Notes: generated from the letters alone by a model not told the origin. Counted from the first letter of the stretch, positions 6,049-32,000 are shown. The stretch: 32,000 bases of DNA from Thalassolituus hydrocarboniclasticus (GCF_025345565.1 NZ_CP054475.1:2844006-2876005), one strand, 5' to 3'. Program-made: numbers and translations.

Positions 6049-6588
6049 TTATTCGGCCTCAGATCCCTGATAAGATTCATGCCTTAAAATAGCGCCATCT
6101 TCAAAACTGCCCTGGATAGACAAGAGCTTGCCTACATCAAGAAGAATGACCATTTTCTCGTTAACGTTAACCAGCCCTTTTATAAATCCTGAATTTTTGT
6201 CTTCGGTAAGTTCCGGCGGTTTACGTGTGGATGCATCTGCAATGGTATAAACATCAGACACAGCATCGACCACGATTCCCATAACCCGCTCACCGCTATC
6301 GCGTTCAACTTTCAGAATAATGACAACCGTCACAGGGCTGTATTCAATACGTTTAAGACCAAAACGGATACGCAAGTCCATAATCGGTACAATTGTTCCA
6401 CGGAGATTAATAACACCACGGATGTACTCAGGCGCATTGGGTATCAGGGTTGATTCTTCCCAGCCCCGTATTTCCTGAACAGCAAGAATATCAACACCAT
6501 ATTCTTCATCTGACATCATGAAAGTAAGATATTGCTGTTCATCGGCAGTACCCGATTCACTTTTTCCTGAACTTGTTACAACATCCAT
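6049..6588 (-). CDS. cheW: Chemotaxis coupling protein CheW
   Basis: 179 aa with a CheW-like domain ([25 protein letters not shown]...[14 protein letters not shown]). It lies between cheA and the MCP gene. Confidence 0.9.
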
Positions 6589-6596
6589 AATATTTC

Positions 6597-8717
6597 CTAT
6601 GCTGCCTGATCTGGCCGGGCATGGCCCGTCACAGATTTATCCAGATTTTTACCGACGTCAGAAACATCAATAATTAATGCAACGGTTCCATCACCAAGAA
6701 TAGTAGCGCCAGATACCCCGGTAACTCTCTGATAGTTTTGTTCCAGACTTTTAATAACAACCTGCTGCTGGCCGAGAAGATCATCAACAACAATGCCTAT
6801 CTTTTCATTATCACCCTCGACCACGACCAGCATCGGGTTTTCGAACTCATCCTCAGTAGCGCGAAGATTGAACAGTTCATCAAGGCGAACAATTGGGATG
6901 TATTCATCCCGTAGTTTCATCACATACTGACTGCCAGTCACATGATTCAGCGAGCGCTTCTGCAGCTGAATGGACTCAACAATAGAAACCAGAGGGAAAA
7001 TATAGGTTTCGTCTTTCACCTTAACCAGCTGACCATCAAGAATCGCCAGGGTCAGCGGTAAACGAATGATGAAGGTAGATCCTTTACCAAGTTTGGATTT
7101 CACCTCAATACTGCCATTAAGCTCAGTGATATTACGCCGGACAACATCCATTCCGACACCGCGACCGGAGATATCACTAACGACATCGGCGGTAGAAAAC
7201 CCCGGGAGGAAAATAAGCTGATGGATCTCTTCACTGCTGAGTTCCTGAGTTTCCGGAATCAGTTTTTTCTGCCTGGCTTTATTTAAAATCCGCTCTTCAT
7301 TCAGCCCGGCGCCATCGTCTTTTACTTCAATAACGATATTACCGCCCTGATGATAAGCGTTCAGAGTGATAGTCCCCTCTGCAGGTTTACCGGCAGCCAG
7401 ACGCTGTTCCGTTGTTTCCAGACCATGATCAAGAGAATTACGTACCAGATGTACCAATGGATCGCCGATTTTTTCCATCACGGTTTTATCCAGCTCGGTA
7501 TTTTCACCCAGCATGACCAGATTTACCTGTTTTCCCAGCTGTCCGCCCAGGTCACGAACCAGACGCGGGAAGCGGCTGAACGCGAAACTGATCGGCATCA
7601 TGCGGATCTTCATCACGCTTTCCTGCAGCTCTCGGGTATTCTGTTCTAACTGCGCAAGTCCTTCCTGCAGGCGGGCAAGACGGCTCATATCAAAATCCTG
7701 CCCCAATTGTCCGAGCATAGACTGAGTAATAACCAGCTCACCGACCATATTAATAAGACTGTCGACTTTATCGATGGATACCCGGATAGATGAAGGCTCA
7801 TTAGATTTAACAGCCGCACGGGGAGTCGCAGCAGGTGCGGGTTTATTAGCTGCAGATGCGCTGAGTGCCTCTGTAACTTTATCCGGTATTGCCGGAGCAG
7901 TTAGCTCCGCACTGATGTCAGAGGGTTCTGTTTCTGCCTCCGCCTGGTCTGCCAGCGCAGTACCGTCATCGGCGGCAACGGCTGATAACGGCTGATATTC
8001 AATCTCACAATCATCTGCAACCCATTCAAATACACCGGAGATATCATCGCGACTGGTATCGCCACGCACTTCCAGAATCCAGCTGAGGTAACATTGTTCA
8101 GGATGCAGGCTGGTAAACTCAGGCAGATTATCGGTTACCGGGGTTACGCTCAGATTGTCGGCACCGACCAGTTCCTGCAGTTCGCGGAACATACGGAATG
8201 GTTCGTTACCGGTTTGCAGAATATCTTCTGCCGGACGGAAAATAATGCGCCAGCCCTGAATGCTACTGTCTGCTGATGTTTCCTCCGGTTCCTGCCGTTC
8301 TGAAGGTACTTGCTGCTCAGCGTCCGAAGGCTGCTTCAGTATTTTTTCAAAGCTGGATTTTAACGCAGCTGCGCGTTCACCATCCGGTTCCGAGCCAGCC
8401 TGAAGACTACCAAGCATCGCCCGCAGACAGTCAACTGACTGCAGAAAAAGATCAATATAATCACGCTGCATACTGCGGCTGCCACTGCGGATTTCATCCA
8501 GTAGTGTTTCTACGACATGGGTAAATTCCGAAACCTGCATAAAGCCAAAGGTACCGGCACCACCTTTAATTGAGTGAGCAGCACGAAAAATAGTATTAAC
8601 ACTTTCCGCATCGACTTCCTGCGGCTGCAGGTCCAGCAATTGACTCTCCATCACATCGAGTCCTTCGAAGCTTTCTTCGAAGAAGATTTGATGAAACTGC
8701 GAAAGATCGATGCTCAT
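6597..8717 (-). CDS. cheA: Chemotaxis histidine kinase CheA
   Basis: 706 aa. It has an Hpt domain (FRAAHSIKGGAGTFG), dimerisation and HATPase domains (HLVRNSLDHG, DDGAGL, GRGVGMDVV) and a C-terminal CheW-like domain. Confidence 0.95.
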   Translation of the reverse strand: MSIDLSQFHQIFFEESFEGLDVMESQLLDLQPQEVDAESVNTIFRAAHSIKGGAGTFGFMQVSEFTHVVETLLDEIRSGSRSMQRDYIDLFLQSVDCLRAMLGSLQAGSEPDGERAAALKSSFEKILKQPSDAEQQVPSERQEPEETSADSSIQGWRIIFRPAEDILQTGNEPFRMFRELQELVGADNLSVTPVTDNLPEFTSLHPEQCYLSWILEVRGDTSRDDISGVFEWVADDCEIEYQPLSAVAADDGTALADQAEAETEPSDISAELTAPAIPDKVTEALSASAANKPAPAATPRAAVKSNEPSSIRVSIDKVDSLINMVGELVITQSMLGQLGQDFDMSRLARLQEGLAQLEQNTRELQESVMKIRMMPISFAFSRFPRLVRDLGGQLGKQVNLVMLGENTELDKTVMEKIGDPLVHLVRNSLDHGLETTEQRLAAGKPAEGTITLNAYHQGGNIVIEVKDDGAGLNEERILNKARQKKLIPETQELSSEEIHQLIFLPGFSTADVVSDISGRGVGMDVVRRNITELNGSIEVKSKLGKGSTFIIRLPLTLAILDGQLVKVKDETYIFPLVSIVESIQLQKRSLNHVTGSQYVMKLRDEYIPIVRLDELFNLRATEDEFENPMLVVVEGDNEKIGIVVDDLLGQQQVVIKSLEQNYQRVTGVSGATILGDGTVALIIDVSDVGKNLDKSVTGHARPDQAA

Positions 8718-8722
8718 ACCGG

Positions 8723-9085
8723 TTACCCCAGAACGCGTTTGATCGTGCTCAGAAGCTGTTCCGGATTAAAAGGTTTTACAATCCACCCTGTTGCTCCGGC
8801 CTGCTTTCCCTGTGCTTTTACGTCTCCAGCCGATTCAGTCGTCAGCATAAGTACGGGCACAAACTTATAATCGGCCAGTTGGCGTAATTCCTTAACTAAT
8901 TCGATGCCATTCATATTCGGCATGTTCACATCGGACAGCACCAGGTCATATTTTTTCTTACTGGCAAATTCCAGCGCCTGTACGCCATCGCAGGCCTCCT
9001 GCACATCATGCCCGGCACCACGAAGGGTAAAAGACACCATCTGTCGCATGGATGCAGAGTCATCGACAGCTAAAATACTCGCCAT
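8723..9085 (-). CDS. cheY: Single-domain chemotaxis response regulator CheY
   Basis: 120 aa. Motifs are ILAVDDS, LVLSDVNMPNMNG, LMLTTE and IVKPF. It lies 5 nt upstream of cheA. Confidence 0.9.
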   Translation of the reverse strand: MASILAVDDSASMRQMVSFTLRGAGHDVQEACDGVQALEFASKKKYDLVLSDVNMPNMNGIELVKELRQLADYKFVPVLMLTTESAGDVKAQGKQAGATGWIVKPFNPEQLLSTIKRVLG

Positions 9086-20246: not shown

Positions 20247-20711
20247 TCAGACAGAAATATGACTTTCCAGACGGGCATCGCTGACAGCTGTAACAGAAGG
20301 CGATGATGCGCTGCCATTCAGACCTTGCAGATATTCCTGACGGATACCATCCCAGCCCTGTTTAACTTCCAGCAATAAACTCATGACCTCATCAATCATG
20401 GCCAGATCATTCTGACTGGTGGCTTCCAGCAGACGCCGGTTCATATAGTCGTAAAGACGGTCAAGGTTTTGCGACAACTCACCACCCGCCGAATGATCCA
20501 GACTGCCCTGCAATGTCTGGATAATTTCCATTACCCGTCCCAGCAGATTGGCCTTGGTGTCCATCTCTTTGCGTTCGATGGCTCCTTTCGCCTGTGACAT
20601 ACGCGTCAGCGCTGCCTCCATTAACAATTGAATCAGGCGATGAGGATCGGCATCCAACACCTCGGAAGTCACGTTTACCTGCTGATATTGCTGCGCACCG
20701 CTCTTATACAT
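20247..20711 (-). CDS. fliS: Flagellin-specific export chaperone FliS
   Basis: 154 aa from the ATG at 20711, which has an AGGAGA RBS 7 nt upstream. The sequence begins MYKSGAQQYQQVNVTSEVLDADPHRLIQLLMEAALTRM and contains LDRLYDYMNRRLLEA, both typical of FliS. The 47 extra residues in the track ORF are rejected. Confidence 0.85.
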   Translation of the reverse strand: MYKSGAQQYQQVNVTSEVLDADPHRLIQLLMEAALTRMSQAKGAIERKEMDTKANLLGRVMEIIQTLQGSLDHSAGGELSQNLDRLYDYMNRRLLEATSQNDLAMIDEVMSLLLEVKQGWDGIRQEYLQGLNGSASSPSVTAVSDARLESHISV

Positions 20712-20748
20712 GTCACGTCTCCTGAATTCACAAAGGCCTGTTACCAGT

Positions 20749-20775
20749 ATTACGGCCGTACGGAGAATTTCTTTA
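20749..20775 (-). promoter_or_regulatory. Candidate sigma-28 (FliA) promoter for fliS
   Basis: The minus strand reads TAAAGAAA-N11-GCCGTAAT, against the consensus TAAAGTTT-N11-GCCGATAA. TAAAG and GCCG match perfectly and the spacing is exact. It ends 38 nt upstream of the fliS ATG. Confidence 0.4.
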
Positions 20776-20908
20776 GCCTCTGATTTAACAGACGGCCATG
20801 CCCAGTATTCCATAAAAACGGCAAGACCTCGCCGGACGGCAACCTGTAACACCCCCGATTGCCGCTATAGATATTCTCAAAGTCCTTAGTATTCAATGAG
20901 TTAGGAAA

Positions 20909-20923
20909 TGGCACGCATTGTGC
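20909..20923 (+). promoter_or_regulatory. Sigma-54-type promoter upstream of the TPR-methyltransferase gene
   Basis: The plus strand reads TGGCACGCATTGTGC. The -24 element TGGCACG is perfect and the -12 element is GTGC, at canonical spacing. The -12 element lies 44 nt upstream of the ATG at 20967. Confidence 0.5.
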
Positions 20924-20966
20924 TGATAGCCGGATTGTCAGTGCATTTTTTAATGAGGCTTCAATT

Positions 20967-22985
20967 ATGGCTAGCGCACAACTACAGACCGTCGCCCGCA
21001 ACGGTACAGGTGAATACCGCCACCTGTATGAACTGGCGAGCAAGCTGTACAGCGATGCGGTCGCACAGCAGGATGAACACCTGCTGCAGGAAGCCTGTGC
21101 GCTGGCAGAAGCAGCACAGCAGCTGCGCCCCGACAACCTTGCCGGATTAAATCTTCTTGCCCGGATTGAATTACAGCAGCACCATCTGGCGGCCGCGGAA
21201 TACTGGGTAAACCGTGGTCTGGCACTTAAACCAGACAGCGCCAGCCTGCTGTACAGTGCAGGCCATATTGCGCTGAGCCAGCAACAGCTGGATAAAGCCG
21301 AGGATTATTTCACCCGCTCCAGCCGTATCTCACGGGTGGCCACTAAAGCAGCCAACTTTCTTGCCCACGTTAAATTATTACAGGGCGATTATGTTGAAGC
21401 ATTCCGTCATTATCGTGAACTGGTCAAAACCCAGTCACGCGACAAACAGATCCGCAGTAAATTATTTGAATCCGCCTCACAGGTTATTGCAGATTTTTAT
21501 TCGGAAGAGCTGGAACAGGATCTGTTACGCTACCTCGACTTTACTGATACCGATCACAGCCAGTTACGCAGCCTGACCACCTCACTGCTGAAACATAAAT
21601 TACGGCTATCTGAAGCCGGATGTCCGCTTGAGCTGGAAACCATTGCCAGCGATAACCTGCTGTTAAAATCCCTGACCCGTTTTTATTTTTGCGACCCGCT
21701 GATTGAACGTCTGCTGCTGACGCTGAGAAAATCATTGTTATTATCCTGCAGCAGCAATCTTGCAATAAAAAAAGACCTGCTACCTCTGGTAACTTCGCTG
21801 GCGCACCAGTGTTCGCTGAATGAGTCCGTATGGTATACAACTACTCAGGAAGAAGCTCTGGTACAGCAGTTGGAAATGCTGTGCAGTAAAATGCTGAACA
21901 TCGATGAATTACAGGCAACCGATATTTATCCGGCTATGCTGCTGGTGCAAATGTACAAGCCGCTAATTCATTGTGAGTTTTTTCAGGCACTGACTCAGAA
22001 GAAACTGCAATGGCCAAAAATGATGGATAGTCTGGTTCGTTCGGCAGTCACTGAACAGCAGAACCTGAGTCGCCTTCTTGATACCATTCCAACGATTGGC
22101 ATCTGCGCCGACAGTACCTCAAAGAAAGTTCAGCAACAGTATAATCAGAATCCTTATCCACGCTGGACCGATATCGGTTACAGCCAGCCGGGCAATTATA
22201 AAACTGCGCTACAGTCTGCTTTTCCACAACATGAACTTCTGCCCCAAACAGACAATGGAACCCTGAACATTCTGGTAGCAGGCTGCGGCACAGGCCGCCA
22301 TGCTATTCGCCTTGCGCAATATTTCACGCAGGTAAAAGTCAGCGCTCTGGACCTGAGCCATAGCGCACTGGCTTATGCCAAATATCAGGCGGAGAAACGC
22401 CACTGCCATAATATTCACTTTATGCAGGGTGATATTCTGCAACTTGATAATCTGCGTGAAACTTTTGACGTAATAGAGTGCTCAGGTGTTTTACATCATA
22501 TGCACTCCCCCATCACCGGTCTGCGGGCATTAGCACAACAGCTGAAATCCGGCGGCGTAATCAAAATTGCGCTTTACAGTGCCACTGCGCGCCAGAAAAT
22601 CAGTGAGCTGCGTAAACTCTGGGGAAATAAACTACCAGGGAAACCTGCAGAAATGCGTCTGATAAGGGAAGCTCTGCTGCAGGGGTCTATCGAAGGTGAT
22701 TGGAAAGAGATCTATAATTCACCGGATTTTTACAGCCTGAGCGCCTGTCGTGATCTGCTGTTTCATGAGCAGGAGCATGTGTTTGATGTACTGGAATTAG
22801 AAGACTTTCTGGCCGGAGCCGGACTGGAATGGATTGGCATGTTGCCACCGCCCGACTCGCAGGAATTACTCAGCCTTACAGGTAAACACAGCAGCCGGAT
22901 TAGCCCCGAAGAATGGCACACGCTGGAACAGAACAACCCGCAACTCTTTGCCGGCATGTACCAGTTTTATGCACGTAAGCCTTAA
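20967..22985 (+). CDS. TPR-repeat protein fused to a class I SAM-dependent methyltransferase (substrate unknown)
   Basis: 672 aa. The N-terminal TPR-like repeats read LNLLARIELQQHHLAAAEYWVNRGLALKPDSASLLYSAGHIAL. The motif QQYNQNPYPRW precedes MTase motif I (LNILVAGCGTGRHA) and post-I/II motifs (VSALDLS, FDVIECSGVLHHM). Confidence 0.8.
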   Translation: MASAQLQTVARNGTGEYRHLYELASKLYSDAVAQQDEHLLQEACALAEAAQQLRPDNLAGLNLLARIELQQHHLAAAEYWVNRGLALKPDSASLLYSAGHIALSQQQLDKAEDYFTRSSRISRVATKAANFLAHVKLLQGDYVEAFRHYRELVKTQSRDKQIRSKLFESASQVIADFYSEELEQDLLRYLDFTDTDHSQLRSLTTSLLKHKLRLSEAGCPLELETIASDNLLLKSLTRFYFCDPLIERLLLTLRKSLLLSCSSNLAIKKDLLPLVTSLAHQCSLNESVWYTTTQEEALVQQLEMLCSKMLNIDELQATDIYPAMLLVQMYKPLIHCEFFQALTQKKLQWPKMMDSLVRSAVTEQQNLSRLLDTIPTIGICADSTSKKVQQQYNQNPYPRWTDIGYSQPGNYKTALQSAFPQHELLPQTDNGTLNILVAGCGTGRHAIRLAQYFTQVKVSALDLSHSALAYAKYQAEKRHCHNIHFMQGDILQLDNLRETFDVIECSGVLHHMHSPITGLRALAQQLKSGGVIKIALYSATARQKISELRKLWGNKLPGKPAEMRLIREALLQGSIEGDWKEIYNSPDFYSLSACRDLLFHEQEHVFDVLELEDFLAGAGLEWIGMLPPPDSQELLSLTGKHSSRISPEEWHTLEQNNPQLFAGMYQFYARKP

Positions 22986-23005
22986 TTTCTCTGCAGCAAC
23001 AGGAA

Positions 23006-23683
23006 TTACAGCTGCCACTGTATCGGTGCTTCACCACGGGAAATAAGGTAATCGTTAATACGTGAAAACTGGTGATTCCCGAAAAATCCGCGGTGCGCGG
23101 ATAACGGTGAAGGATGCACCGACTTCAGCACCAGGTGTTTCTGCGGATCAATGACGGCACCTTTTTTCTGCGCATAACTGCCCCAGAGTACAAATACCAA
23201 CCCTTCTCGCTGTTCATTCAGTGCACGGATAGCCGCATCGGTAAATTGCTCCCAGCCTTTGCCCTGATGTGATCCGGCATTGGCCTGTTCCACCGTCAGC
23301 GTTGCATTCAATAATAAAACGCCCTGATCAGCCCACGGGGTCAGATCACCACTGCCACTCATATGCAGACCAAGGTCACCTTCAATTTCTTTAAAAATAT
23401 TCACCAGCGACGGTGGAATTTTTACCCCAGGCTGCACCGAAAAACTTAAACCATGAGCCTGCCCCGGACCGTGGTACGGGTCCTGACCAATAATCACCAC
23501 ACGCACCTGCTGAAAGGGCGTGTGATTAAAGGCATTAAAAATCTGCGGACCCGGTGGAAAAATAACCTTACCCGCCGCCTTCTCTGCCTTGAGAAATTCG
23601 CGCAGATTATGCATATAAGGCTGCTCCAGTTCAGAACCAAGCACTGCCTGCCAGGATGGATGTAATTCTCCGGCTTTTCCCAT
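23006..23683 (-). CDS. ung: Uracil-DNA glycosylase
   Basis: 225 aa from the ATG at 23683, with an AAGGAT RBS. Motifs are [16 protein letters not shown] and [11 protein letters not shown]. Confidence 0.9.
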
Positions 23684-23740
23684 GATGAATATCCTTAAAA
23701 ACTGTCTGTTAACTGTCCGGGTTGTCTGTGGCAACAGGCC

Positions 23741-23771
23741 CTAACAAAACAGGCAGCCGAAGCTGCCTGTT
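23741..23771 (-). terminator. Rho-independent terminator downstream of lysS
   Basis: A perfect 10-bp stem, AACAGGCAGC-cgaa-GCTGCCTGTT (23748-23771), is followed on the minus strand by TTTTGTTAG. Confidence 0.6.
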
Positions 23772-23790
23772 GTTATCGTCTGCTCAGCGC

Positions 23791-25323
23791 TTAATCCACC
23801 AGAGGCTTCATGTGCGGGAACAGAATAACGTCTTTAATGGTGTGGCTGTTGGTAAACAGCATCACCAGACGGTCGATACCAATACCTTCACCAGCAGTTG
23901 GTGGCAGACCGTATTCCAGCGCGCGCACGTAGTCTTCGTCGTAGTGCATCGCTTCATCATCGCCGGCGTCTTTTTCTTCAACCTGCTTACGGAAACGGGC
24001 AGCCTGATCTTCGGCATCATTAAGCTCAGAGAAGCCATTGGCCAGCTCACGCCCGCCGACAAAGAATTCAAAGCGGTCGGTCACAAACGGGTTGTCGTCA
24101 TTGCGGCGCGCCAGTGGTGACACTTCCCACGGATATTCGGTAATAAAGGTCGGCTGATCCAGCTTCTCTTCGGCGGTGGCTTCAAAGATTTCACACACCA
24201 GCTTACCGGCACCCCAGCCTGCTTCTTTCGGCCCCAGATGAATACCCACGCTGCGGGCATACTCTTTCAGGGTTTCGATGTTGTTTTCAGCATCGCGCAG
24301 AACAGCCGCGTCCATTTCCGGATTATATTTGAGGATGGCATCGACCATGCTCATACGGGTAAATGGCTGGGCAAAGTCGTAGGTCGCATCGCCGTATTCC
24401 AGCGTAGTGGTACCCAGTACGCTTTCCGCCAGGAAGCGCAGCATGGCTTCCGTGGTATCCATCATATCGCGGTAATCGGCATAGGCCTGATAGAACTCGA
24501 TCATGGTGAATTCAGGATTGTGACGGGTGCTCAGACCTTCGTTACGGAAGTTACGGTTAATCTCGAACACGCGGTCAAAACCGCCCACCACCAGACGCTT
24601 CAGGTACAGCTCCGGTGCAATGCGCAGGAACATATCGATGCCCAGTGCATTGTGGTGGGTTTCAAACGGCTTGGCCGATGCACCACCGGGAATAGTTTGC
24701 AGCATCGGGGTTTCCACTTCCATAAAGCCGCGCTGCGACAGGAAGTAACGGATACCTTCAATAATTTTTGAGCGGATCAGGAAGGTACGGCGGGTATCTT
24801 CGTTAATGATCAGGTCAACGTAGCGCTGACGGTATTTCATTTCCTGGTCGGCCAGACCGTGGAATTTATCCGGCAGCGGACGCAGTGCCTTGGTCAGGAT
24901 GCGGAAGTTGCTGAGCTCGTCGATATCGACATACAGCTCGCCCTTGCCGGACAGGTGTAACGTACCGGAGCCGGCAACGATGTCACCCAGATCGAGCATC
25001 TGCCAGGCTTCGCTTTCTTTCTGCATGCCTTTGGCCATGTAAATCTGGATCGAGCCGGTGCTGTCCTGAATACCCACAAAAGGACCACCGCGACGCATCA
25101 CACGTCCGGCAACAGCAACACGGATACCGGCAGCAGCCAGTTCTTCCTGACTCTTGCTGCCGTGTTCGGCTTTCAGTTCACCGGCCAGATGTTCACGACG
25201 GAAATCGTTCGGGTGAGCATTTGATTTACAGTTGCTGCGCAGCTGTTCAAGCTTGGCACGGCGCTCGGCGATCAGTTTGTTCTCATCCTGAGCTGGCTGC
25301 TCGGTCACTTTGTTGTCTGTCAT
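23791..25323 (-). CDS. lysS: Lysine--tRNA ligase (class II)
   Basis: 510 aa. It has an OB anticodon-binding fold and class II motifs ([32 protein letters not shown]). It lies 38 nt downstream of prfB, the arrangement of the conserved prfB-lysS operon. Confidence 0.95.
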
Positions 25324-25361
25324 GGTGTTACCCTAAAAATTAGATGATACGAAGCGTGTGG

Positions 25362-26457
25362 TTACAGGCCTTTTTTCAGGCTGGCTTCGATAAACTGGTC
25401 AAGATCGCCGTCCAGTACCGCCTGGGTATTACGGGTTTCAACCCCGGTACGCAGGTCTTTGATACGGGCATCGTCAAGCACGTAAGAACGGATCTGGCTG
25501 CCCCAGCCGATATCCGACTTGGTATCTTCCAGCGCCTGAGCCTCAGCATTACGCTTCTGCATTTCCAGCTCATACAGCTTGGCTTTCAGCTGCTTCATCG
25601 CCTGGTCTTTGTTCTTGTGCTGCGAACGGTCATTCTGGCACTGAGTCACGATACCGGACGGCATGTGGGTAATACGCACCGCCGATTCGGTCCGGTTAAC
25701 GTGCTGACCACCGGCACCGGAGGCGCGGTAAACGTCGATACGCAGGTCGGCCGGGTTAATCTCGATATCGATATTGTCGTCCACTTCCGGCGATACGAAC
25801 ACCGATGAGAATGACGTATGGCGACGGTTGCCGGAGTCAAACGGGCTCTTACGTACCAGACGGTGTACACCGGTTTCGGTACGTAACCAGCCATAGGCAT
25901 ATTCACCCTCGACGCGGATAGTAGCGCCTTTGATGCCCGCGACTTCGCCTTCAGACACTTCCATCAGCTCGCCTTTGAAGCCATGCGCTTCGATCCAGCG
26001 CAGGTACATACGCAGCATCATGTTCGCCCAGTCCTGGGCTTCAGTGCCGCCGGAGCCGGACTGGATTTCAACGTAGCAGTTGTTCGGGTCCAGTTCGCCG
26101 GAGAACATACGGCGGAATTCCAGCACTTCCAGTTCTTTCTGCAGGGCAGCCAGTTCGGCGCGGATATCTTCTACCGAGTTTTCGTCTTCTTCCTCAACGG
26201 CCATGTCCAGCAGGTCACGGGCGTCACTCAGGCCGGTATCCAGGGTATCAATGGTTTTGACCACATTTTCCAGAGCAGAGCGTTCTTTGCCCAGCTCCTG
26301 CGCGCGTTCCGGGTTATCCCAGACGTCGCCCTGTGACAGTTCCTGTTCTACTTCTTCCAGACGCTCAAGCTTGTTGGCGTAGTCAAAGATACCCCCTAAG
26401 CACGTCGGTGCGCGCTGTCAGGTCTTTGATGGTTTCGAGGATCGGATTAATTTCCAA
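25362..26457 (-). CDS. prfB: Peptide chain release factor 2, expressed through a programmed +1 frameshift
   Basis: Frame 0 runs from the TTG at 26457 (M)[23 protein letters not shown] to the TGA at 26385..26383. The +1 frame continues [34 protein letters not shown] and joins the track ORF 25362..26264. The SPF (RKSPFDSG) and GGQ (SGAGGQHVN) motifs are present. Confidence 0.9.
26382..26397 (-). other. prfB programmed +1 ribosomal frameshift site
   Basis: The minus strand reads CTT AGG GGG TAT CTT TGA C. An internal SD-like AGGGGG lies 3 nt before the slippery CUU-UGA-C, identical in layout to the classical RF2 autoregulatory site. Confidence 0.85.
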
Positions 26458-26778
26458 TGTAATACCCTGTTGTCATCCGGCAGACAGGCCGGTCGGAGTC
26501 AGTACGGCCAGCACTCAGGGCGCTGACGACAAAAAAGAGGCAGCATTTTACAGAAGTCAGGCGCCGGATGCGAGTGTGTTTCGGGGGGAGTCAGCGCAGC
26601 AAGACGGCTCAGCCGGGGCCTGAAGAACACAGCGGCTACAGGCAATGATTGACCATCCCGCTGTGGATGTTGCCACCGTTTATGGAACAGACAGGAAATA
26701 TACAATAAGGCTATTGCAAATCCTTCGCATTAAGATTACATTGCAAATCAAACTGATTCGCATCCGGATTTGATTACC

Positions 26779-26973
26779 ATGTACGTATGTTTGTGCAAAG
26801 CCGTTACCCAACAACAGATTGAGCAGGCCGTCGAGCAAGGCGACAGCTACGCCCAGATCCGTCAGAAGCTGGGTGTTGGTACTGACTGCGGCTGCTGTGG
26901 CCAGAGCGCCAAGCAGATGATCCGTGAGCATACATCCCGCCTGCCGCCCTGCGAGTTCGCAGTAGCCAGCTGA
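26779..26973 (+). CDS. bfd: Bacterioferritin-associated ferredoxin (Bfd-like [2Fe-2S] protein)
   Basis: 64 aa from the ATG at 26779, beginning MYVCLCKAVTQQQIEQAV and containing GTDCGCCG. The cysteine pattern is C-x-C...C-x2-C, and length and N-terminus match Bfd. The track ORF starts 9 nt earlier at a TTG. Confidence 0.8.
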   Translation: MYVCLCKAVTQQQIEQAVEQGDSYAQIRQKLGVGTDCGCCGQSAKQMIREHTSRLPPCEFAVAS

Positions 26974-26993
26974 GAAAACTGACATTCAGATGC

Positions 26994-27023
26994 AAAAAAA
27001 GAGCGCCCTGGGCGCTCTTTTTT
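26994..27023. terminator. Bidirectional rho-independent terminator between bfd (+) and the SnoaL-like gene (-)
   Basis: The sequence is AAAAAAA-GAGCGCC-ctg-GGCGCTC-TTTTTT. The 7-bp GC stem is flanked by an A-run and a T-run, so it can work in both directions. Confidence 0.7.
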
Positions 27024-27051
27024 ATTGGCTGACAAGGACAACACTGAGCCT

Positions 27052-27489
27052 TTATCCGGCTGCCCGTACCGGACCATTTCCCCAGTCCTGAGCCATCTGA
27101 CGCTGCAGCCCGGCCAGATCGACCAGTGTATTCTGGCTGCAGACTCTGCCCCGGCGGATTTCCCAGGTAGACACTGCGCTGAAGCTAATCACTTTATTAT
27201 TGGGAGGAAAACCGAACAGGGGTTTCTGAAAGGAGCCGCTGAATGTCGATATCGTTATAACGCGATCATCTTCAGCCATGATGTCTTCAACCGACACATC
27301 AAGATCGGCAATCGAAGTGCGGATTTGTTTGACGTATTCAACGAAGGTATCAATGTCTTTAAAACCTTCGGCAAAGGTCGTGTGGTAAACAAAATCGGGA
27401 GTCGCAATCTGACGCAGCAAATTGAAACGGCCGGTATTCCAGGACAGATTAATAAAGTGTTCGACGAGTTGTTTGTTGCGCTCTGACAT
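27052..27489 (-). CDS. SnoaL-like / NTF2-fold protein (predicted ester cyclase family)
   Basis: 145 aa. It has the NKQLVEHFINLSWNTG... pattern, a central ADLDVSVEDIMAEDDRVI and TWEIRRGRV near the end, all typical of SnoaL-like cyclase-fold proteins. The assignment is by motif recollection only. Confidence 0.6.
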   Translation of the reverse strand: MSERNKQLVEHFINLSWNTGRFNLLRQIATPDFVYHTTFAEGFKDIDTFVEYVKQIRTSIADLDVSVEDIMAEDDRVITISTFSGSFQKPLFGFPPNNKVISFSAVSTWEIRRGRVCSQNTLVDLAGLQRQMAQDWGNGPVRAAG

Positions 27490-27658
27490 GGCGGATCCTT
27501 GCCTTACACAGTGAACATTCCTTTAAACAAGCCACTGTCAGCCTGCTTATCTATGTCTCGGACATTCTGGGTCACAGTGACGTAATTTTCCACTCTAATA
27601 TTTTGTAAGATATCTCGCACAACAATGCGCGATCACCCCGCTATGGAGTGATCACGGT

Positions 27659-30600
27659 TTATTTCTTGGAGTTATTCATTGCTTCAAACTGCTGCTTCAC
27701 ATAATCCAGAGTAGTATTAAGAGTGGAAATAATGGAGTCGTTGTACAGGAACTGGGCTTTAAGCCGCGCCTCCTGCGCAGAAATCCGCGCTTCCATACGG
27801 CTGCGATCTTCATCAACCGCTTCCAGTTCATCATCCAGCCCCGACTGTTTAACCCCGATGACACTCTTCTGGCCATTAAGGAAACTGTCCATAATATCTT
27901 TCAGTTGATCGCCGAAGCCGGTGATATAGGTCACACTGCCACGCTCGCCGACATTGCCACCGGTCACTTTCAGACGCAGACCGGAAGCATCATCGATCGT
28001 ACCCACCTGGTCTTTACCCGGCTCGCCATCACCCGCGCCCCGGACAAAACCAAAAACAGCAGCGGCTTCATTGGAAAAATCCATTATTTCAACAGACGAT
28101 GACGCACCGGTTGAAGCAGAAATAATGCCGAATTTATTATTGGCAAAGGATGCAGGGTCATCTGTAAATTCTACTTTTACAGCAATACTTTCATCTTTAA
28201 ATGCTGCGGTATCATTAATCGCCTGCTGCAGTGCCTGAGCCAGAGTTGCACCACTGTTGTAGGTCGCAGGCTGATTTAATGTTACTTCGGCTTCAACACC
28301 ATCGATCTTAATTTTAAAGGTGTTATTGGTTGCATCGATATTCACCGGGGTCGAAAAGTCCGCCGCTTCATTACCGATGTAATAGCCATTACTGGCTTTC
28401 ACATTACCATCTACCGCTCGCAGGAACTGGCCGCTACCCGTTGCTTCAATACCGTTGATGGTACCGGCAACGTCTTTGCCTTTAGCCGTTGATGGCGAGT
28501 ACTGACTGACATCCTGCAGGCCGAGGAAAGCGATGGATGAGCTGTCCAGTCCGGTAAAACCAACAGCTGTGCCCTGACCACCAATGGTGATATTCAGGGA
28601 GCCCAGATCTGATTCCGGATCGTAAACATAATCAACCACGGCATCCAGATCGTAGCCAAAGGTTCTGGAGGTGTCGGTCAGGCCGAGTCCGTCGTAACCA
28701 TTACTGACGGTTTCAGCCGCAAGGCCCAGCGAGCTTAGCGCTGTACCGCCAAGGTTTTTAATTTCCAGAGCGGCACCGGAGCCAAAGGTCGCAGCGGTTT
28801 TAACACCGTCTTTACTCTGGGTTTCAAAGTACAGCTGACCGCTGTCATCAACGCGGGCTTTCACATCTCCGGCAGCAAATTGCCCGGTCGCAGCCAGTGC
28901 CGTATCCAGCGCCTGCTGAATAACAATCAGATTAGAATCGGCATTATTACTGCCCGTTGTGCCATCACCGCTTACATCCACATTGATGTCGACGCCATCC
29001 AGTGTCAGGGTGAAGGTTGCATTCTGCCCGCCACTGAAATCAATACCGGCAGAAATATCGGCAAAACTGCTGCTTTGTGCACCACGGCCGTCGCTGACAA
29101 CTTCAATATATTCTTCGTGTCCGGTTGCTACCGTAGTTAATTTCAACCCGGTTCCGTCCAGACTGGCGCTGACCACACCTGCACCAAAAGCATTATCCAG
29201 GGCGGTCTGAATATCGACGATGTTGTCACCGGAGTCGCTGTTCACCAGCACATCTTTTTCCACACCCGACACATTCAGGCGGAAGCCGGCATTAGTCGCC
29301 GAAAAATCAATGTTGGTGCTGATATCACGGGTTGCCGTTGCAGTTTCCGCGCCTTTAACCGCACCGGCAAAATTAGCATCAGCGGCCAGCGTAATATTTA
29401 ACTGATTCTGAATCTCTGCCGCTAACGCATCGCCTGTTGCATAAGTACCGGCCGGAACAGATACCTTGGTGGCACTTTCGATACCATCGACCTGTACGTT
29501 AAATTCTACCGGTGAGCCAAAGGTCAGCCCCGGATCTTTACCGTTAGTCTGTACGCCCTGAGTACCATTAAGGCCCAGCTGCACATCCGAAGTATTAGTG
29601 CCAACCGCAGTCAGCTCAATACTGCGCGCCGTGCCTTCGGCCACGGTTTCAAAAATCAGATAGCCGTTGTCATCAAAGGACGCCGTTACCTGGCCATTCA
29701 GTGCGGTTGCATCAATAGCAGTCTGGATAGCCTGCAGGGTATCTTTCCTGTCACCAAATACCCCATCACCATTCAGATCCTGGCCATTGGCATTCTGATT
29801 AACCACAACAGCTACCGGACCATTACCATCAACGTCGAGAGAAAAGCTCGCGTTACTGACCGAAAAATTGATTCCGGTACTGGCAGAAACTGAGGTATTA
29901 CCAATCTGAGTAGTCGCACCTTTACCATTAAAAGCTTCGGCATTCAGCGTGGTCAGCTCGACGCCTTGATAGGTACCCTGACCAAGCTTATTAAAGCCCA
30001 GCGTGTTGGCCAGATTAGGATCGACAGCCGCAAAATACACCTGTGACTCGGAGCCGTATTTGTTTGAGGTAATGGAAAAGTTTTTATCCGTAGCACTGTA
30101 ATCAACCGAAACACTGTGCCCATATTTAGACAGGGTTTCACTGCTGTTAATCTGCAGCGCCAATTGCTTGGCCAGATCCTCACCAGAGCTGTAACTGCCA
30201 TGGGTCAGCTCAATACTGGCGGTCTGACCATTTACGTTAATACGGAAATTATCGTTGCTTTCATCAATCACAACCGGCGAAGAAAAATCCAGCGAAGACA
30301 GTGATCCACCAACGTATTTAGCCTGACTCGCTAATTGAGTAATATTGACGTCATAGGTGCCCGGCTTGGTATTAATCGAGTCGTTGACATAAGTAATCTG
30401 GCTGTCGGTGGTGGTACCGGATTTAGCCAGCAGGCCCACAATAGACGCCCGGTCTTCTGTCATCGCTTTTTTGAATTTGGCCGTATTAAAATCCAGCTGG
30501 TAGTCATTATCCCGGTTGGTATCAACCCCCAGCTCGGTCAGTGAGCGGTATTTACCGGTTAAGCCAACGATAGGTTCGCTGATCATCGCGCGGATCTGCG

Positions 30601-31609
30601 ACATCATCGTACGGATGGTAGAGTCACCCAGTAACAGGCCCGCCTGTTGCTTGTCCACGTCATAACCGGACAGATCATCAACAAAGGTTTTCAGCTCATT
30701 ATAGGCATCGACAAAACCCTGAATACTTTCCGACAGTTTGTCGGTATCGGCACTGACTGTAACGCTGATGTTTTTACCGACATCGGCATTTTTAAGATTA
30801 AGGGTCACCCCTTTAATCACTTCATCTACGGAGTTACTGCTGCGGGTGATGGTCAGGCCGTTAACATTCAGCTGCGCGTCTTCGCCGCGGCTGGTCTGGC
30901 TCATATTGGCGGCAGTATTCTGGTTTTCATTAAAGGCCAGTGCACCCAGCCCGCCACTGAGCATCGCGCCGGACTCGTCCAGCGCGACAATACGCATGGC
31001 ATTTTCAGCCCCGGTTTCTTCCGAGGTCATCAGCAGACGATAGCCGCTGCCATCGTTGATGATACTGGCGGTTACACCCATATCGGCATTATTGATCGCG
31101 TCGCGGATACCGCTGAGGGTGCGGTTGGAGTCGTCGATAGTAATGGTTTTGCCGAGACGATCCGGATTCAGGTCTTGGCTGACAAAATTGCCGCCGGCGC
31201 CATAGGTGATATCACCAAAGGTAAATACCAGTTTTCCGATACCAATAATTTCGTCAAAGCTGCTGTAGGTTTGTGTTGCCAGGGAATGGGATTTAGCCGT
31301 GTTCAGCACTTCGACATTATAGGTGCCCGGCTCGGACAGGCTGGAGGTTGTTGCGGTCAGAATATCTTCATCAGACGACGTCGCCGTGGTTGAGCTTACC
31401 AGACTCGGGCTGGACAAATTGTTAGCCGCAGACTGTACCTTCGCCATCATCGACTGAATTTCACCATAGGCGGTGATTTTGGCTTCCACCAGCTGCTGAC
31501 GGCTATCCAGACGCAGCGATGTTGCCTCTTTCTCTGCACTGATGATTTTTTCCACCAGATCCGTAGTCAGAACTCCTGACCCTAATCCCAGTGATTCTAT
31601 CGACGCCAT
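27659..31609 (-). CDS. fliD: Flagellar filament cap protein FliD (hook-associated protein 2), giant 1316-aa form
   Basis: The N-terminus (SLGLGSGVLTTDLVEKIISAEKEATSLRLDSRQQL), the canonical IN-type unit (ITIDDSNRTLSGIRDAINNADMGVTASIINDGSGYRLLMTSEETG), LLLGDSTIRTMMSQIR and the C-terminal coiled coil (RMEARISAQEARLKAQFLYNDSIISTLNTTLDYVKQQ) are all FliD-like. A GGGGGAA RBS precedes it, and it lies directly downstream of flaG. Confidence 0.85.
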   Translation of the reverse strand: MASIESLGLGSGVLTTDLVEKIISAEKEATSLRLDSRQQLVEAKITAYGEIQSMMAKVQSAANNLSSPSLVSSTTATSSDEDILTATTSSLSEPGTYNVEVLNTAKSHSLATQTYSSFDEIIGIGKLVFTFGDITYGAGGNFVSQDLNPDRLGKTITIDDSNRTLSGIRDAINNADMGVTASIINDGSGYRLLMTSEETGAENAMRIVALDESGAMLSGGLGALAFNENQNTAANMSQTSRGEDAQLNVNGLTITRSSNSVDEVIKGVTLNLKNADVGKNISVTVSADTDKLSESIQGFVDAYNELKTFVDDLSGYDVDKQQAGLLLGDSTIRTMMSQIRAMISEPIVGLTGKYRSLTELGVDTNRDNDYQLDFNTAKFKKAMTEDRASIVGLLAKSGTTTDSQITYVNDSINTKPGTYDVNITQLASQAKYVGGSLSSLDFSSPVVIDESNDNFRINVNGQTASIELTHGSYSSGEDLAKQLALQINSSETLSKYGHSVSVDYSATDKNFSITSNKYGSESQVYFAAVDPNLANTLGFNKLGQGTYQGVELTTLNAEAFNGKGATTQIGNTSVSASTGINFSVSNASFSLDVDGNGPVAVVVNQNANGQDLNGDGVFGDRKDTLQAIQTAIDATALNGQVTASFDDNGYLIFETVAEGTARSIELTAVGTNTSDVQLGLNGTQGVQTNGKDPGLTFGSPVEFNVQVDGIESATKVSVPAGTYATGDALAAEIQNQLNITLAADANFAGAVKGAETATATRDISTNIDFSATNAGFRLNVSGVEKDVLVNSDSGDNIVDIQTALDNAFGAGVVSASLDGTGLKLTTVATGHEEYIEVVSDGRGAQSSSFADISAGIDFSGGQNATFTLTLDGVDINVDVSGDGTTGSNNADSNLIVIQQALDTALAATGQFAAGDVKARVDDSGQLYFETQSKDGVKTAATFGSGAALEIKNLGGTALSSLGLAAETVSNGYDGLGLTDTSRTFGYDLDAVVDYVYDPESDLGSLNITIGGQGTAVGFTGLDSSSIAFLGLQDVSQYSPSTAKGKDVAGTINGIEATGSGQFLRAVDGNVKASNGYYIGNEAADFSTPVNIDATNNTFKIKIDGVEAEVTLNQPATYNSGATLAQALQQAINDTAAFKDESIAVKVEFTDDPASFANNKFGIISASTGASSSVEIMDFSNEAAAVFGFVRGAGDGEPGKDQVGTIDDASGLRLKVTGGNVGERGSVTYITGFGDQLKDIMDSFLNGQKSVIGVKQSGLDDELEAVDEDRSRMEARISAQEARLKAQFLYNDSIISTLNTTLDYVKQQFEAMNNSKK
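28070..30289 (-). repeat. At least six divergent IN-motif-like coding modules inside fliD
   Basis: The motif [DNT]F[SG]-x(3-12)-F-x-[ILV]-x-[VIL]-[DNS]-G starts at FliD residues 441, 581, 696, 768, 857 and 1084. Each copy is followed 15-30 aa later by an amphipathic helix such as LAKQLALQINSS, LQAIQTAIDAT, LAAEIQNQLNIT, IVDIQTALDNAF, IVIQQALDTAL or LAQALQQAINDT. Confidence 0.65.
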
Positions 31610-31668: not shown

Positions 31669-31710
31669 CAAAAAACCCTGTACTGGCTTTATCGGCCAAT
31701 GCAGGGTTTT
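31669..31710 (-). terminator. Rho-independent terminator between flaG and fliD
   Basis: The minus-strand RNA reads AAAACCCUG-CAUUGGC-CGAUAAA-GCCAGUA-CAGGGUUUUUUG. This is a composite stem (CCCUG/CAGGG plus the inner AUUGGC/GCCAGU) followed by a U6 run, about 40 nt after the flaG stop. Confidence 0.55.
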
Positions 31711-31746: not shown

Positions 31747-32000
31747 CTAAACTTGCGCGCTGAACAATAAAGATGGTTCCTCATCATTCAATTTCTGCGC
31801 CAGTTCCAGAGCCAGCTCACTGGGAATCTGTCGGATCAGTTCCGATGATGCCCGGTCATAGACGCGGATAATGGTTTTACCGCTATCTTCGTCCAGCTGG
31901 AAATCCAGTGTTCTTTCTGTTTGCTGTACATACTCATTGATACGGGAAATTGCTTCTCTGACCTGATCTTTATTCAGTTCCGCAACTTTCTCAGTTCCAA
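31747..32000 (-). CDS. flaG: FlaG-family flagellar protein (3' part; the start lies outside the window)
   Basis: My own minus-strand translation gives ...GTEKVAELNKDQVREAISRINEYVQQTERTLDFQLDEDSGKTIIRVYDRASSELIRQIPSELALELAQKLNDEEPSLLFSAQV*. The L-F-x-DE-x-G-x-x-I-x-V-x-D-x-x-x-x-E-x-IRQIP-x-E pattern is the FlaG signature. The gene is absent from the ORF track. Confidence 0.75.
   Translation of the reverse strand, partial: GTEKVAELNKDQVREAISRINEYVQQTERTLDFQLDEDSGKTIIRVYDRASSELIRQIPSELALELAQKLNDEEPSLLFSAQV

What the first reader, a model, noticed from the sequence alone, without database searches (positions are those of the whole stretch)
27659..31609. Giant (1316-aa) flagellar cap protein FliD
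The ORF is uninterrupted and has unmistakable FliD termini. The N-terminal coiled coil and head region cover residues 1 to about 435, and the C-terminal part from about 1196 to 1316 includes the terminal coiled coil. FliD proteins I know of are roughly 450-700 aa, so about 750 residues are extra. They lie in one large block (about 436-1045) and a second block (about 1080-1195), separated by the canonical KDVAGTINGIEATGSGQFL segment. I found no Cys or Trp among the 1316 residues, which fits a protein exported through the flagellar type III pathway. Giant flagellins that form thick filaments have been reported, as I recall, in marine Oceanospirillales (Bermanella, Oleibacter). A matching oversized cap has not, to my knowledge, been characterised. 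The extra mass at the filament tip could either match a thick filament or act as an adhesive or binding tip.
Basis: partly seen in the sequence, partly recalled or inferred. Interest (0 to 1): 0.8.

Follow-up and report, generated by a model that had tools for sequence, protein, structure and literature searches.

The report
Giant six-repeat flagellar cap protein
This is a real, well-conserved but unstudied 1316-residue flagellar cap protein (FliD), nearly three times the usual size because copies of its own head domains were inserted into its stalk, and caps this large sit next to the giant flagellins that build unusually thick marine flagella.

Summary
Window 27659..31609 (- strand) is one uninterrupted 1316-aa ORF with FliD_N and a split FliD_C, no Cys and no Trp. 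It is 100% identical to FliD of Thalassolituus hydrocarboniclasticus.

- **Insert:** about 820 residues (407-1226, 84 kDa) sit at one point in the D1 helical bundle, the topological site of the Campylobacter jejuni D4 domain.
- **Architecture:** the insert is a second D2-like beta domain carrying six diverged ~100-aa repeats related to FliD's own D3 domain. AlphaFold2 models it confidently (pLDDT 90, pTM 0.70). The best fold matches are FliD head domains.
- **Conservation:** 117 orthologues of 1306-1325 aa show almost no indels. The insert is as conserved as the core (dN/dS about 0.04).
- **Series:** it is the upper part of a graded series of one to at least nine extra repeats, in FliDs from about 670 to 1860 aa.
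- **Association:** all 7 FliD clusters of at least 780 aa lie beside flagellins of at least 683 aa, against 3 of 21 shorter clusters (Fisher p 1e-4). FlgK is about 1000 aa in the four Thalassolituus/Oleispira loci where it is visible, and 1018 aa in a Reinekea-type locus.

No paper describing such caps was found. The most likely function is a widened cap matched to a thick filament; a tip-adhesin role is not excluded. It is a new variant of a known kind, of moderate interest.

The parts
27659..31609 (-). fliD ORF, 1316 aa plus stop; 137 kDa, pI 4.2
   Evidence: 100% identical to P0001, T. hydrocarboniclasticus FliD
31394..31609 (-). Residues 1-72: N-terminal D0 coiled-coil segment and first D1 helix (start of FliD_N)
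   Evidence: Pfam FliD_N 11-108; alignment to Salmonella FliD
30740..31393 (-). Residues 73-290: canonical head, with D2 split around D3. D3 carries a Flagellin_IN-like motif at 155-196
   Evidence: the repeat HMM also hits 157-216
30392..30739 (-). Residues 291-406: D1 helices, the first part of FliD_C
   Evidence: FliD_C 242-406 matches profile 1-170
27932..30391 (-). Residues 407-1226: 820-aa nested insert (84 kDa) covered by no Pfam family
   Evidence: AF2 pLDDT 90.1, pTM 0.70 for residues 403-1231; Foldseek best hits are FliD head domains
30305..30391 (-). Residues 407-435: first strands of a second D2-like domain (D2'), resembling residues 83-105 of D2
   Evidence: hhalign D2a against D2' segment 1, 86% probability, E 5e-6
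29990..30292 (-). Repeat R1, residues 440-540
   Evidence: repeat HMM E 8e-31; R1~R6 99.6%
29567..29884 (-). Repeat R2, residues 576-681; includes the invariant DLNGDG..D loop at 611-623
29375..29506 (-). Repeat R3, residues 702-745; only the N-terminal half matches
29066..29326 (-). Repeat R4, residues 762-848
28718..29062 (-). Repeat R5, residues 850-964
28481..28717 (-). Residues 965-1043: all-beta segment with no match to the repeat HMM
   Evidence: secondary structure in the AF2 model
28367..28480 (-). Residues 1044-1081: D2' segment 2, holding GKDVAGTINGIEATGSGQFL
28043..28363 (-). Repeat R6, residues 1083-1189
   Evidence: repeat HMM E 3e-31. In the AF2 sub-model, 10-residue block mean pLDDT is 84-97 across about residues 1070-1199. 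Fold hits are FliD heads
27932..28024 (-). Residues 1196-1226: D2' segment 3
27662..27931 (-). Residues 1227-1316: last D1 helix and C-terminal D0 coiled coil (end of FliD_C)
   Evidence: FliD_C profile 164-235 at residues 1227-1298; Salmonella 402-467 aligns to 1249-1314
31747..32000 (-). 3' part of flaG, cut by the window end
   Evidence: Pfam FlaG E 1e-18
31670..31710 (-). Conserved hairpin between flaG and fliD, followed by a T run. Its loop holds GCCGATAA (31689-31696), the sigma-28 -10 consensus
   Evidence: In the ten related loci inspected the stem sequence varies while the hairpin is kept; the loop is GCCGATAA in nine and GTCGATAA in L010
20247..20852 (-). fliS, the usual neighbour of fliD, here 6.8 kb downstream
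   Evidence: Pfam FliS E 3e-36

Best explanation
This is the functional filament-cap gene fliD of Thalassolituus hydrocarboniclasticus. The normal cap core is intact: D0 coiled coil, D1 helical bundle and D2-D3 head. The D1 bundle is interrupted between its last two helices by an 820-residue module. That module was built by repeated duplication of the cap's own head domains. It consists of a second D2-like beta domain into which six D3-like repeats of about 100 residues are nested, five in one loop and one in the next.

Shown:
- the architecture;
- strong purifying selection on the insert;
- the graded series of repeat number across FliDs;
- the association with long flagellins, and with a long FlgK in the loci where flgK is visible.

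Inferred: as in C. jejuni, where the D4 domain inserted at this site lies on the outside of the cap away from the flagellin-folding cavity, the five copies of the module project outward and form a wide brim around a pentameric cap of about 0.69 MDa. The brim sits at the radius occupied by the very large outer domains of the giant flagellin. There it covers or docks onto the growing outer layer of the thick filament and keeps the cap seated as subunits are added. It probably has no part in the core insertion chemistry.

I put identity and architecture at about 0.95, and this structural-matching role at about 0.45.
For: - **Identity:** FliD_N plus split FliD_C; alignment to Salmonella FliD; flaG-fliD context; 100% match to an NCBI FliD.
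- **Architecture:** profile comparisons link the repeats to one another at 93-99.6% probability. D2' segment 1 matches D2 (86%) and D3 matches R2 (68%). The repeat HMM finds six repeats plus the protein's own D3. AF2 gives pLDDT 90.1 and pTM 0.70.
- **Fold:** Foldseek hits are H. pylori FliD D2-D5 (E 3e-8), C. jejuni FliD, and FliD D2-D3 crystal structures.
- **Constraint:** the insert is 65% identical across 117 orthologues against 63% for the core, with almost no indels. dN/dS against T. alkanivorans is 0.041 for the insert and 0.052 for the core.
- **Association with thick-filament parts:** the giant-FliD loci with a recovered upstream flank have flagellin ORFs of 816-1359 aa. A 1408-aa FliD lies beside a 1393-aa flagellin, a 943-aa FliD beside a 2018-aa flagellin, and a 1309-aa FliD beside a 986-aa flagellin. 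Across 28 FliD clusters, 7 of 7 large caps against 3 of 21 small caps sit beside flagellins of at least 683 aa (Fisher p 1e-4; Spearman 0.52, p 0.005).
- **FlgK:** it is not at the tip, yet it is 1001 aa in T. marinus, 992-999 aa in three further loci, and 1018 aa in the Reinekea-type locus.
- **Thick filaments:** Oleibacter marinus filaments are at least 30 nm wide (PMC6248924).
- **Position of the insertion site:** C. jejuni D4 is an insert in the D1 bundle and lies far from the cap cavity (PMC7316729 and PMC12221982).
Against: - FliDs of about 680 aa with a single extra repeat sit beside flagellins of 750-1155 aa in three other clusters (six loci), so a giant cap is not needed for a long flagellin.
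- Within the giant clade FliD length is fixed at about 1316 aa while flagellin length ranges from 816 to 1359 aa, so the two do not scale one to one.
- Head domains D2-D3 are dispensable for filament formation in P. aeruginosa (PMC8533109).
- No sequence similarity was found between the insert and the giant flagellin that might hint at a matched lattice (E 0.12).
- No coordinates, multimer model or image of the tip was available, so the position of the module is by analogy only.
- The comparative sample is small, and the clusters are not phylogenetically independent.
Confidence: 0.55

Rival explanations
1. The module is a tip adhesin. The five 84-kDa arrays of beta-rich repeats at the extreme tip of a single polar flagellum bind a surface, particle, polymer or oil-water interface. 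The link to giant flagellins reflects a shared lifestyle, not a structural fit.
For: - FliD acts in adherence in some bacteria, and C. jejuni D4 was postulated to underlie heparin binding (PMC7316729).
- The insertion site is distant from the flagellin-incorporation cavity (PMC12221982).
- Head domains are not needed for capping in P. aeruginosa (PMC8533109).
- Cap size does not track flagellin size within the clade.
- The named hosts include hydrocarbon degraders (PMC6248924).
- Invariant acidic DLNGDG..D loops could bind Ca2+.
Against: - No recognisable lectin, carbohydrate-binding or adhesin family appears in Pfam, and the fold hits are flagellar head domains.
- The only adhesin-type fold hit, 4p99, has probability 0.25.
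- In my experience exposed adhesin repeat arrays usually vary in copy number and sequence. Here length is fixed and dN/dS is about 0.04.
- FlgK, which is not at the tip, is enlarged in parallel.
Confidence: 0.25
2. The module is a passive surface coat, or a by-product of domain amplification, with no specific partner. It might shield the tip from proteases, phages or grazers, or add hydrodynamic bulk. It would persist because the D1 site tolerates insertions.
For: - The same site carries anything from one to at least nine extra repeats across FliDs, which shows high tolerance.
- P. aeruginosa FliD works with peptide tags or the much larger H. pylori head in place of its own (PMC8533109).
Against: - The insert is under purifying selection as strong as the essential core, with practically no indels across several genera.
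- The confident, compact predicted structure (pTM 0.70) argues for specific constraints.
- The association with flagellin size is significant.
Confidence: 0.12
3. The ORF is an artefact: an assembly error, a frameshift-masked fusion of fliD with another gene, or a pseudogene.
For: None found. One MAG orthologue (L011) shows a frame break, which is typical of draft assemblies.
Against: - 117 independent clusters from isolates, complete genomes and metagenomes encode 1306-1325 aa proteins that are collinear over 100% of the length.
- dN/dS is about 0.04.
- The FliD_C domain is completed only after the insert.
- The insert folds confidently.
Confidence: 0.01

Closest known systems
Salmonella enterica / E. 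coli FliD (HAP2; PDB 5h5v, 9gnz, 9m6i)
   Same: - D0-D1-D2-D3 core: residues 1-401 and 1249-1314 align to Salmonella 1-384 and 402-467.
- The gene follows flaG, as expected for fliD.
- No Cys.
- Presumably a pentameric cap that guides flagellin insertion.
   Different: - 1316 aa against 467.
- The roughly 17-residue connection between the last two D1 helices is replaced by an 820-aa multi-domain module.
- The score is below the NCBIfam equivalog cut-off (250 against 387 bits).
Campylobacter jejuni FliD with its D4 domain (PDB 6sih, 9gsx) and Helicobacter pylori FliD D2-D5 (PDB 6iwy)
   Same: - Extra globular domain(s) added to the cap.
[quoted passage not shown]
- These are the best fold matches of the insert (E 3e-8 and 2e-5).
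   Different: - One or two extra domains (proteins of 642-685 aa) against a seven-domain module.
- No sequence-level match of the insert to any PDB chain, so common origin with D4 or D5 is not shown.
- Those organisms have ordinary-sized flagellins.
Long-form FliDs of about 670-700 aa (the size class of the 672-aa NCBIfam model PRK08724)
   Same: - Same insertion point, near residue 400-435.
- Same D2'-like frame, including the GxDVxGTIxGxxAxGxGQxL segment (28 of 41 sampled).
- The same repeat type, present once.
- The giant protein is the multi-repeat extension of this form.
   Different: - One repeat against six.
- In the sampled loci they usually sit beside flagellins of about 380-600 aa.
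Giant flagellins of Oceanospirillales (Thomson et al. 2018, PMC6248924)
   Same: - Same lineage: Oleibacter, Thalassolituus and Oleispira are named there.
- Same locus (fliC-flaG-fliD).
- Same evolutionary mode: stepwise internal domain duplication enlarging the surface-exposed part of an axial protein.
   Different: - A different protein, with five copies at the tip against thousands along the filament.
- No detectable sequence similarity between the two sets of extra domains.
- Flagellin length varies among the genera while FliD length is fixed.
- The paper does not mention the cap.

Membership tests
FliD / HAP2 filament cap protein | N-terminal FliD_N domain (PF02465) | tested here: met
   Residues 11-108, E 5e-20, 72 bits against a cut-off of 24.8
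FliD / HAP2 filament cap protein | FliD_C domain (PF07195) covering D2b, the D1 helices and the C-terminal helix | tested here: met
   147 bits against a cut-off of 25.4. The match is split: residues 242-406 (profile 1-170) and 1227-1298 (profile 164-235)
FliD / HAP2 filament cap protein | End-to-end collinearity with experimentally solved FliD proteins | tested here: met
   Salmonella FliD 1-384 and 402-467 align to query 1-401 and 1249-1314, E 9e-40
FliD / HAP2 filament cap protein | Score above an NCBIfam FliD equivalog cut-off | tested here: not met
   Best is PRK08032.1 at 250 bits against a cut-off of 387; all six FliD models fall below cut-off. This reflects divergence and the insert. 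NCBI still names the protein FliD
FliD / HAP2 filament cap protein | Late-flagellar gene context (flaG-fliD-fliS) | tested here: met
   flaG lies directly upstream. fliS is present but displaced 6.8 kb downstream by housekeeping genes
FliD / HAP2 filament cap protein | Forms a pentameric cap at the filament tip and is required for flagellin polymerisation | not testable with these tools
   Needs genetics and microscopy
FliD with a D4-type accessory domain (C. jejuni type) | Globular insertion within the D1 helical bundle | tested here: met
   The insert lies between the D1 helices that end at residue 406 and restart at 1227. The definition is from PMC7316729
FliD with a D4-type accessory domain (C. 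jejuni type) | Homology of the inserted domain to C. jejuni D4 | tested here: inconclusive
   Foldseek against 9gsx gives E 2e-5 but low TM-scores. There is no sequence match of the insert to any PDB chain
Flagellin_IN motif domains (PF07196) | Pfam match above the gathering score | tested here: not met
   D3 at 155-196 scores 21.3 against 22.7. In the insert, R2 scores 13.1. Some orthologues do pass (PF07196 is listed for P0016, P0017 and P0020)
Giant-flagellin, thick-filament flagella (Thomson et al. 2018) | Flagellin of around 1000 aa or more encoded in the same flagellar locus | tested here: met
   Not visible in the window. In T. alkanivorans (FliD 94% identical) a 1041-aa flagellin ORF precedes flaG-fliD. 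The range is 816-1359 aa in 17 related loci
Giant-flagellin, thick-filament flagella (Thomson et al. 2018) | Filament at least 30 nm wide | not testable with these tools
   Measured for Oleibacter marinus, which by my recollection is now Thalassolituus marinus, in PMC6248924. Not measured for this species

The most novel reading that the evidence does not exclude
Cap, filament and hook-filament junction have co-expanded as one system. The 0.69-MDa pentameric FliD would form a wide rosette whose repeat arrays template or chaperone assembly of the outer-domain layer of giant flagellins. That would give the filament cap a role in building the outer layer, whereas it is currently described as acting on the D0/D1 core.
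Probability: 0.25. Interest if true: 0.75.

Novelty: new variant of a known kind. Interest (0 to 1): 0.5.

Why it matters
In those models the head is a lid and accessory domains have no assigned role.

A conserved cap with 820 extra, well-folded residues per subunit changes the picture. It is under selection as strong as the core, and it is linked statistically to giant flagellins and to a doubled FlgK. Together these suggest that the whole distal flagellum can be thickened as a unit.

This gives a tractable system, because Thalassolituus and Oleispira isolates can be cultured. It could show how very large flagellin outer domains are assembled at the tip, and what accessory cap domains do. It also extends the 2018 giant-flagellin observation, which did not consider the cap.

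If the module turns out to be an adhesin instead, it would be a large conserved tip organelle in oil-degrading marine bacteria.

Tried and rejected
- **Self-BLASTP of the protein** found no internal repeats. A BLOSUM62 diagonal scan, profile-profile comparison and a repeat HMM were needed.
- **Exact look-up of P0001** to obtain the upstream flagellin of the same genome failed. Relatives from genome contigs were used instead.
- **Shared origin of the FliD insert and the giant flagellin outer domains** was tested by BLASTP and rejected (best E 0.12).
- **phmmer of the insert alone against PDB sequences** gave only a chance hit.
- **The first metagenome query alignment** was too divergent, so a narrower one was used.
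- **Context look-ups** for P0137, P0153 and P0145 found no flagellin gene in the recovered DNA, through contig ends or a non-adjacent gene.
- **A sigma-54 promoter** was sought upstream of fliD and not found.
- **Artefact or fusion explanations** were rejected on the comparative evidence.
- **The second structure job** (residues 1040-1231) modelled R6 well. The D2' fragments scored low because segment 1 was missing, so the model did not sharpen the D2' assignment.


Full report
**1. Observation**

The window holds one uninterrupted ORF at 27659..31609 on the - strand. It is 1316 codons long, starts at ATG and is preceded by GGGGGA. The protein has no Cys and no Trp. The 22 neighbouring genes would predict about 19, giving a Poisson P(0) of about 6e-9. 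It weighs 137 kDa and has a pI of 4.2.

- Pfam gives FliD_N at residues 11-108.
- FliD_C is split into residues 242-406 (profile 1-170) and 1227-1298 (profile 164-235).
- Salmonella FliD residues 1-384 align to query 1-401, and residues 402-467 align to query 1249-1314.
- So a connection of about 17 residues in Salmonella is replaced here by about 820 residues (407-1226, 84 kDa) that no Pfam family covers.
- The protein is 100% identical to the NCBI entry for FliD of Thalassolituus hydrocarboniclasticus.

**2. Reality of the ORF**

The homologue search returned 422 hits. The top 120 are almost all 1306-1325 aa, cover 100% of the query, and are 59-89% identical. They come from Thalassolituus (including T. 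marinus), Bacterioplanes, Venatoribacter, Parathalassolituus, Oceanobacter, Oleispira and Bacterioplanoides, and from many metagenomes.

- In an alignment of 117 such orthologues, the insert is 65% identical to the query and the core 63%. Gaps are close to zero.
- Against T. alkanivorans, dN/dS is 0.041 for the insert and 0.052 for the core. Against T. pacificus it is 0.044 and 0.030.
- A frameshift, assembly error or gene fusion is therefore excluded.
- The insert is translated and constrained as strongly as the essential core.

**3. Anatomy of the insert**

A diagonal scan, profile-profile comparison and a repeat HMM show six diverged repeats of about 100 residues:

| Repeat | Residues |
|---|---|
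| R1 | 440-540 |
| R2 | 576-681 |
| R3 (half) | 702-745 |
| R4 | 762-848 |
| R5 | 850-964 |
| R6 | 1083-1189 |

- Pairwise profile probabilities among the repeats are 93-99.6%.
- The repeat HMM also hits the protein's own D3 domain (157-216, E 9e-4), and D3 matches R2 at 68% probability.
- Residues 405-427, within the segment 403-435 at the start of the insert, match residues 83-105 of D2 (86%, E 5e-6).
- The segment GKDVAGTINGIEATGSGQFL (from residue 1044) resembles the second half of D2 by eye; no profile match was obtained.
- The insert is therefore a second D2-like domain (D2'). R1-R5 plus a beta segment are nested in one loop, and R6 in the next. This mirrors how D3 is nested in D2.

AlphaFold2 models residues 403-1231 with mean pLDDT 90.1 and pTM 0.70. 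That is high for 829 residues and suggests a defined, fairly rigid arrangement.

- Foldseek against the PDB returns H. pylori FliD D2-D5 (6iwy, E 3e-8) and C. jejuni FliD (9gsx).
- It also returns FliD D2-D3 crystal structures (5xlj, 5h5w, 6kty) and the P. aeruginosa flagellin D2/D3 domains.
- A sub-model of residues 1040-1231 gives the same families, plus phage sheath outer domains. Its E-values are modest, 3e-3 to 6e-2.
- No enzyme, lectin or adhesin family was found.

**4. Place in the family**

A search of 1.84 billion representative proteins with the insert alone found 353 hits. The eight long ones scanned against Pfam all have a split FliD_C, and seven also have FliD_N (P0136 appears to lack its N-terminus). 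Counting repeats gives a graded series:

| FliD length (aa) | Extra repeats |
|---|---|
| about 670-700 | 1, at the same site |
| about 780-840 | 2 |
| about 900-960 | 3 |
| about 1030-1070 | 4 |
| about 1150-1170 | 4-5 |
| about 1300 | 6 |
| 1408 | 5, plus 2 more in the head |
| 1860 | 9 |

- The KDVAG-type segment follows the single repeat in 28 of the 41 FliDs of 640-710 aa sampled. It is typical of long-form FliDs but absent from the Salmonella type.
- Other named hosts of caps around 1300 aa are Reinekea and Salinibius. A 1166-aa form occurs in a Hahellaceae MAG.
[quoted passage not shown] - P. aeruginosa FliD still works without D2-D3, or with the larger H. pylori head in their place (PMC8533109).

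**5. Link to giant flagellins**

The window ends inside flaG, so the flagellin gene was examined in relatives.

- In T. alkanivorans (FliD 94% identical) the order is Maf glycosyltransferase, then a flagellin ORF of 1041 aa, then flaG, then fliD.
- The 12 genome loci with a complete giant fliD and a recovered upstream flank have flagellin ORFs of 834-1359 aa. Two loci with FliDs of about 480 aa have flagellins of 515-548 aa.
- Other lineages behave the same way:

| FliD (aa) | Adjacent flagellin (aa) |
|---|---|
| 1408 | 1393 |
| 943 | 2018 |
| 1309 (Reinekea type) | 986 |
| 1154 | at least 759 (cut by contig end) |
| 1068 | at least 626 (cut by contig end) |

- A 685-aa FliD sits beside a 384-aa flagellin.
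- With 80 further metagenome loci, I obtained 61 complete FliD/flagellin pairs in 28 FliD clusters.
- All 7 clusters with FliD of at least 780 aa lie beside flagellins of at least 683 aa, against 3 of 21 clusters with shorter FliD. Fisher p is 1e-4; Spearman is 0.52 with p 0.005.

Caveats:
- ORF lengths run from the first possible start codon.
- The clusters are not phylogenetically independent.
- Three clusters of FliD around 680 aa accompany flagellins of 750-1155 aa.
- Within the giant clade FliD length is fixed while flagellin length varies.

FlgK is also enlarged. It is 1001 aa in T. marinus, 992-999 aa in three further Thalassolituus/Oleispira loci, and 1018 aa in the Reinekea-type locus. 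FlgL is ordinary at about 413 aa. The FliD insert and the giant flagellin share no detectable sequence similarity. Thomson et al. measured filaments at least 30 nm wide in Oleibacter marinus, and named Thalassolituus and Oleispira among the taxa with the largest flagellins. They did not mention the cap.

**6. Mechanism**

What is shown:
- an intact cap core;
- a nested head-domain array at the D1 site;
- strong constraint on that array;
- a graded series of repeat number;
- a statistical link to long flagellins, plus a long FlgK in the five loci where flgK is visible.

What is inferred by analogy with C. jejuni D4: five modules project outward from the legs of a pentameric cap of about 0.69 MDa. 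They form a brim at the radius of the flagellin outer layer, covering or docking onto it during growth of the thick filament.

Parallel enlargement of FlgK, which is not at the tip, favours a structural cause over a purely adhesive one. I rate this at about 0.45. A tip adhesin gets about 0.25, a passive coat or tolerated amplification about 0.12, and an artefact about 0.01.

**7. Novelty and verdict**

These proteins are already deposited and named FliD by annotation pipelines. Accessory domains at this site are known. However, I found no paper describing caps of this size, their repeat architecture, or their association with giant flagellins.

I file it as a new variant of a known kind. A flagellum specialist would find it a natural but unreported counterpart of the giant flagellins, and it is a good experimental handle on what accessory cap domains do. 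Interest is 0.5.

Noticed in passing
window 20247..27659: fliD and fliS are separated by 6.8 kb holding a SnoaL-like gene, a bfd-like gene, prfB, lysS, ung and a divergent TPR-methyltransferase gene. Thalassolituus loci share this block, and Bacterioplanes has it apart from the SnoaL-like gene. In Oleispira-type loci the order is fliD, TPR-methyltransferase, fliS, so the housekeeping block looks like a lineage-specific insertion into the flagellar cluster.
   Followed up: partly
window 20967..22985 (+): A 672-aa protein with N-terminal TPR repeats and a SAM-methyltransferase domain lies next to fliS on the opposite strand in every giant-FliD locus whose downstream flank reaches fliS. A related methyltransferase lies upstream of the 2018-aa flagellin in L022. 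It is a candidate flagellum-associated modifier with unknown target.
   Followed up: partly
window 31670..31710 (-): A conserved hairpin with a T run lies between flaG and fliD. Its loop contains GCCGATAA (31689-31696), the sigma-28 -10 consensus, with a CTTCAG/CTAAAG-like element at the right spacing upstream. In the ten related loci inspected the stem sequence varies while the hairpin is kept; the loop is GCCGATAA in nine and GTCGATAA in L010. This may be a FliA promoter overlapping the flaG terminator.
   Followed up: partly
window 26382..26397 (-): An exact AGGGGGTATCTTTGAC lies upstream of the listed prfB ORF. This is the classic RF2 programmed +1 frameshift site, so prfB starts further upstream than the 300-aa ORF suggests.
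   Followed up: partly
L002 122..3127; L003, L007, L009; L023 1..2329: FlgK (hook-associated protein 1) is about 1000 aa in T. marinus, three further Thalassolituus/Oleispira loci and the Reinekea-type locus, well above the E. coli and C. jejuni sizes I recall (about 550-610 aa). FlgL is ordinary at about 413 aa.
   Followed up: partly
L022 1380..7436; L017 126..5708: Extremes seen elsewhere are a 2018-aa flagellin beside a 943-aa FliD, and an 1860-aa FliD with at least nine repeats from an unnamed metagenome organism. In the second case the contig starts just before fliD, so the flagellin is unseen.
   Followed up: partly
window 29741..29779 (residues 611-623): The loop DLNGDGVFGDRKD in repeat R2 is almost invariant across 58 orthologues (D, L, N, D, R and D are invariant). 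A similar DVSGDG loop occurs in R5. These may be Ca2+-binding loops.
   Followed up: no
L001 762..6063: Directly upstream of the giant flagellin in T. alkanivorans lie a Maf-type flagellin glycosyltransferase and sugar-nucleotide genes (a dehydratase, an aminotransferase and a 2-epimerase). This suggests glycosylated flagellin, and possibly glycosylated FliD.
   Followed up: no
L012 (JBLIBL010000045.1) and P0086: A contig labelled 'MAG: Polaribacter sp.' carries an Oleispira-like fliC-flaG-fliD locus, with FliD 61% identical to the query. This is probably a binning error, because Polaribacter is a Bacteroidota genus that, as far as I know, is not flagellated.
   Followed up: no
window 961..9085: A complete chemotaxis cluster follows the fliE-fliJ genes on the same strand: cheY-like, cheA, cheW, a PAS-containing MCP, cheR, cheD and cheB.
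   Followed up: no
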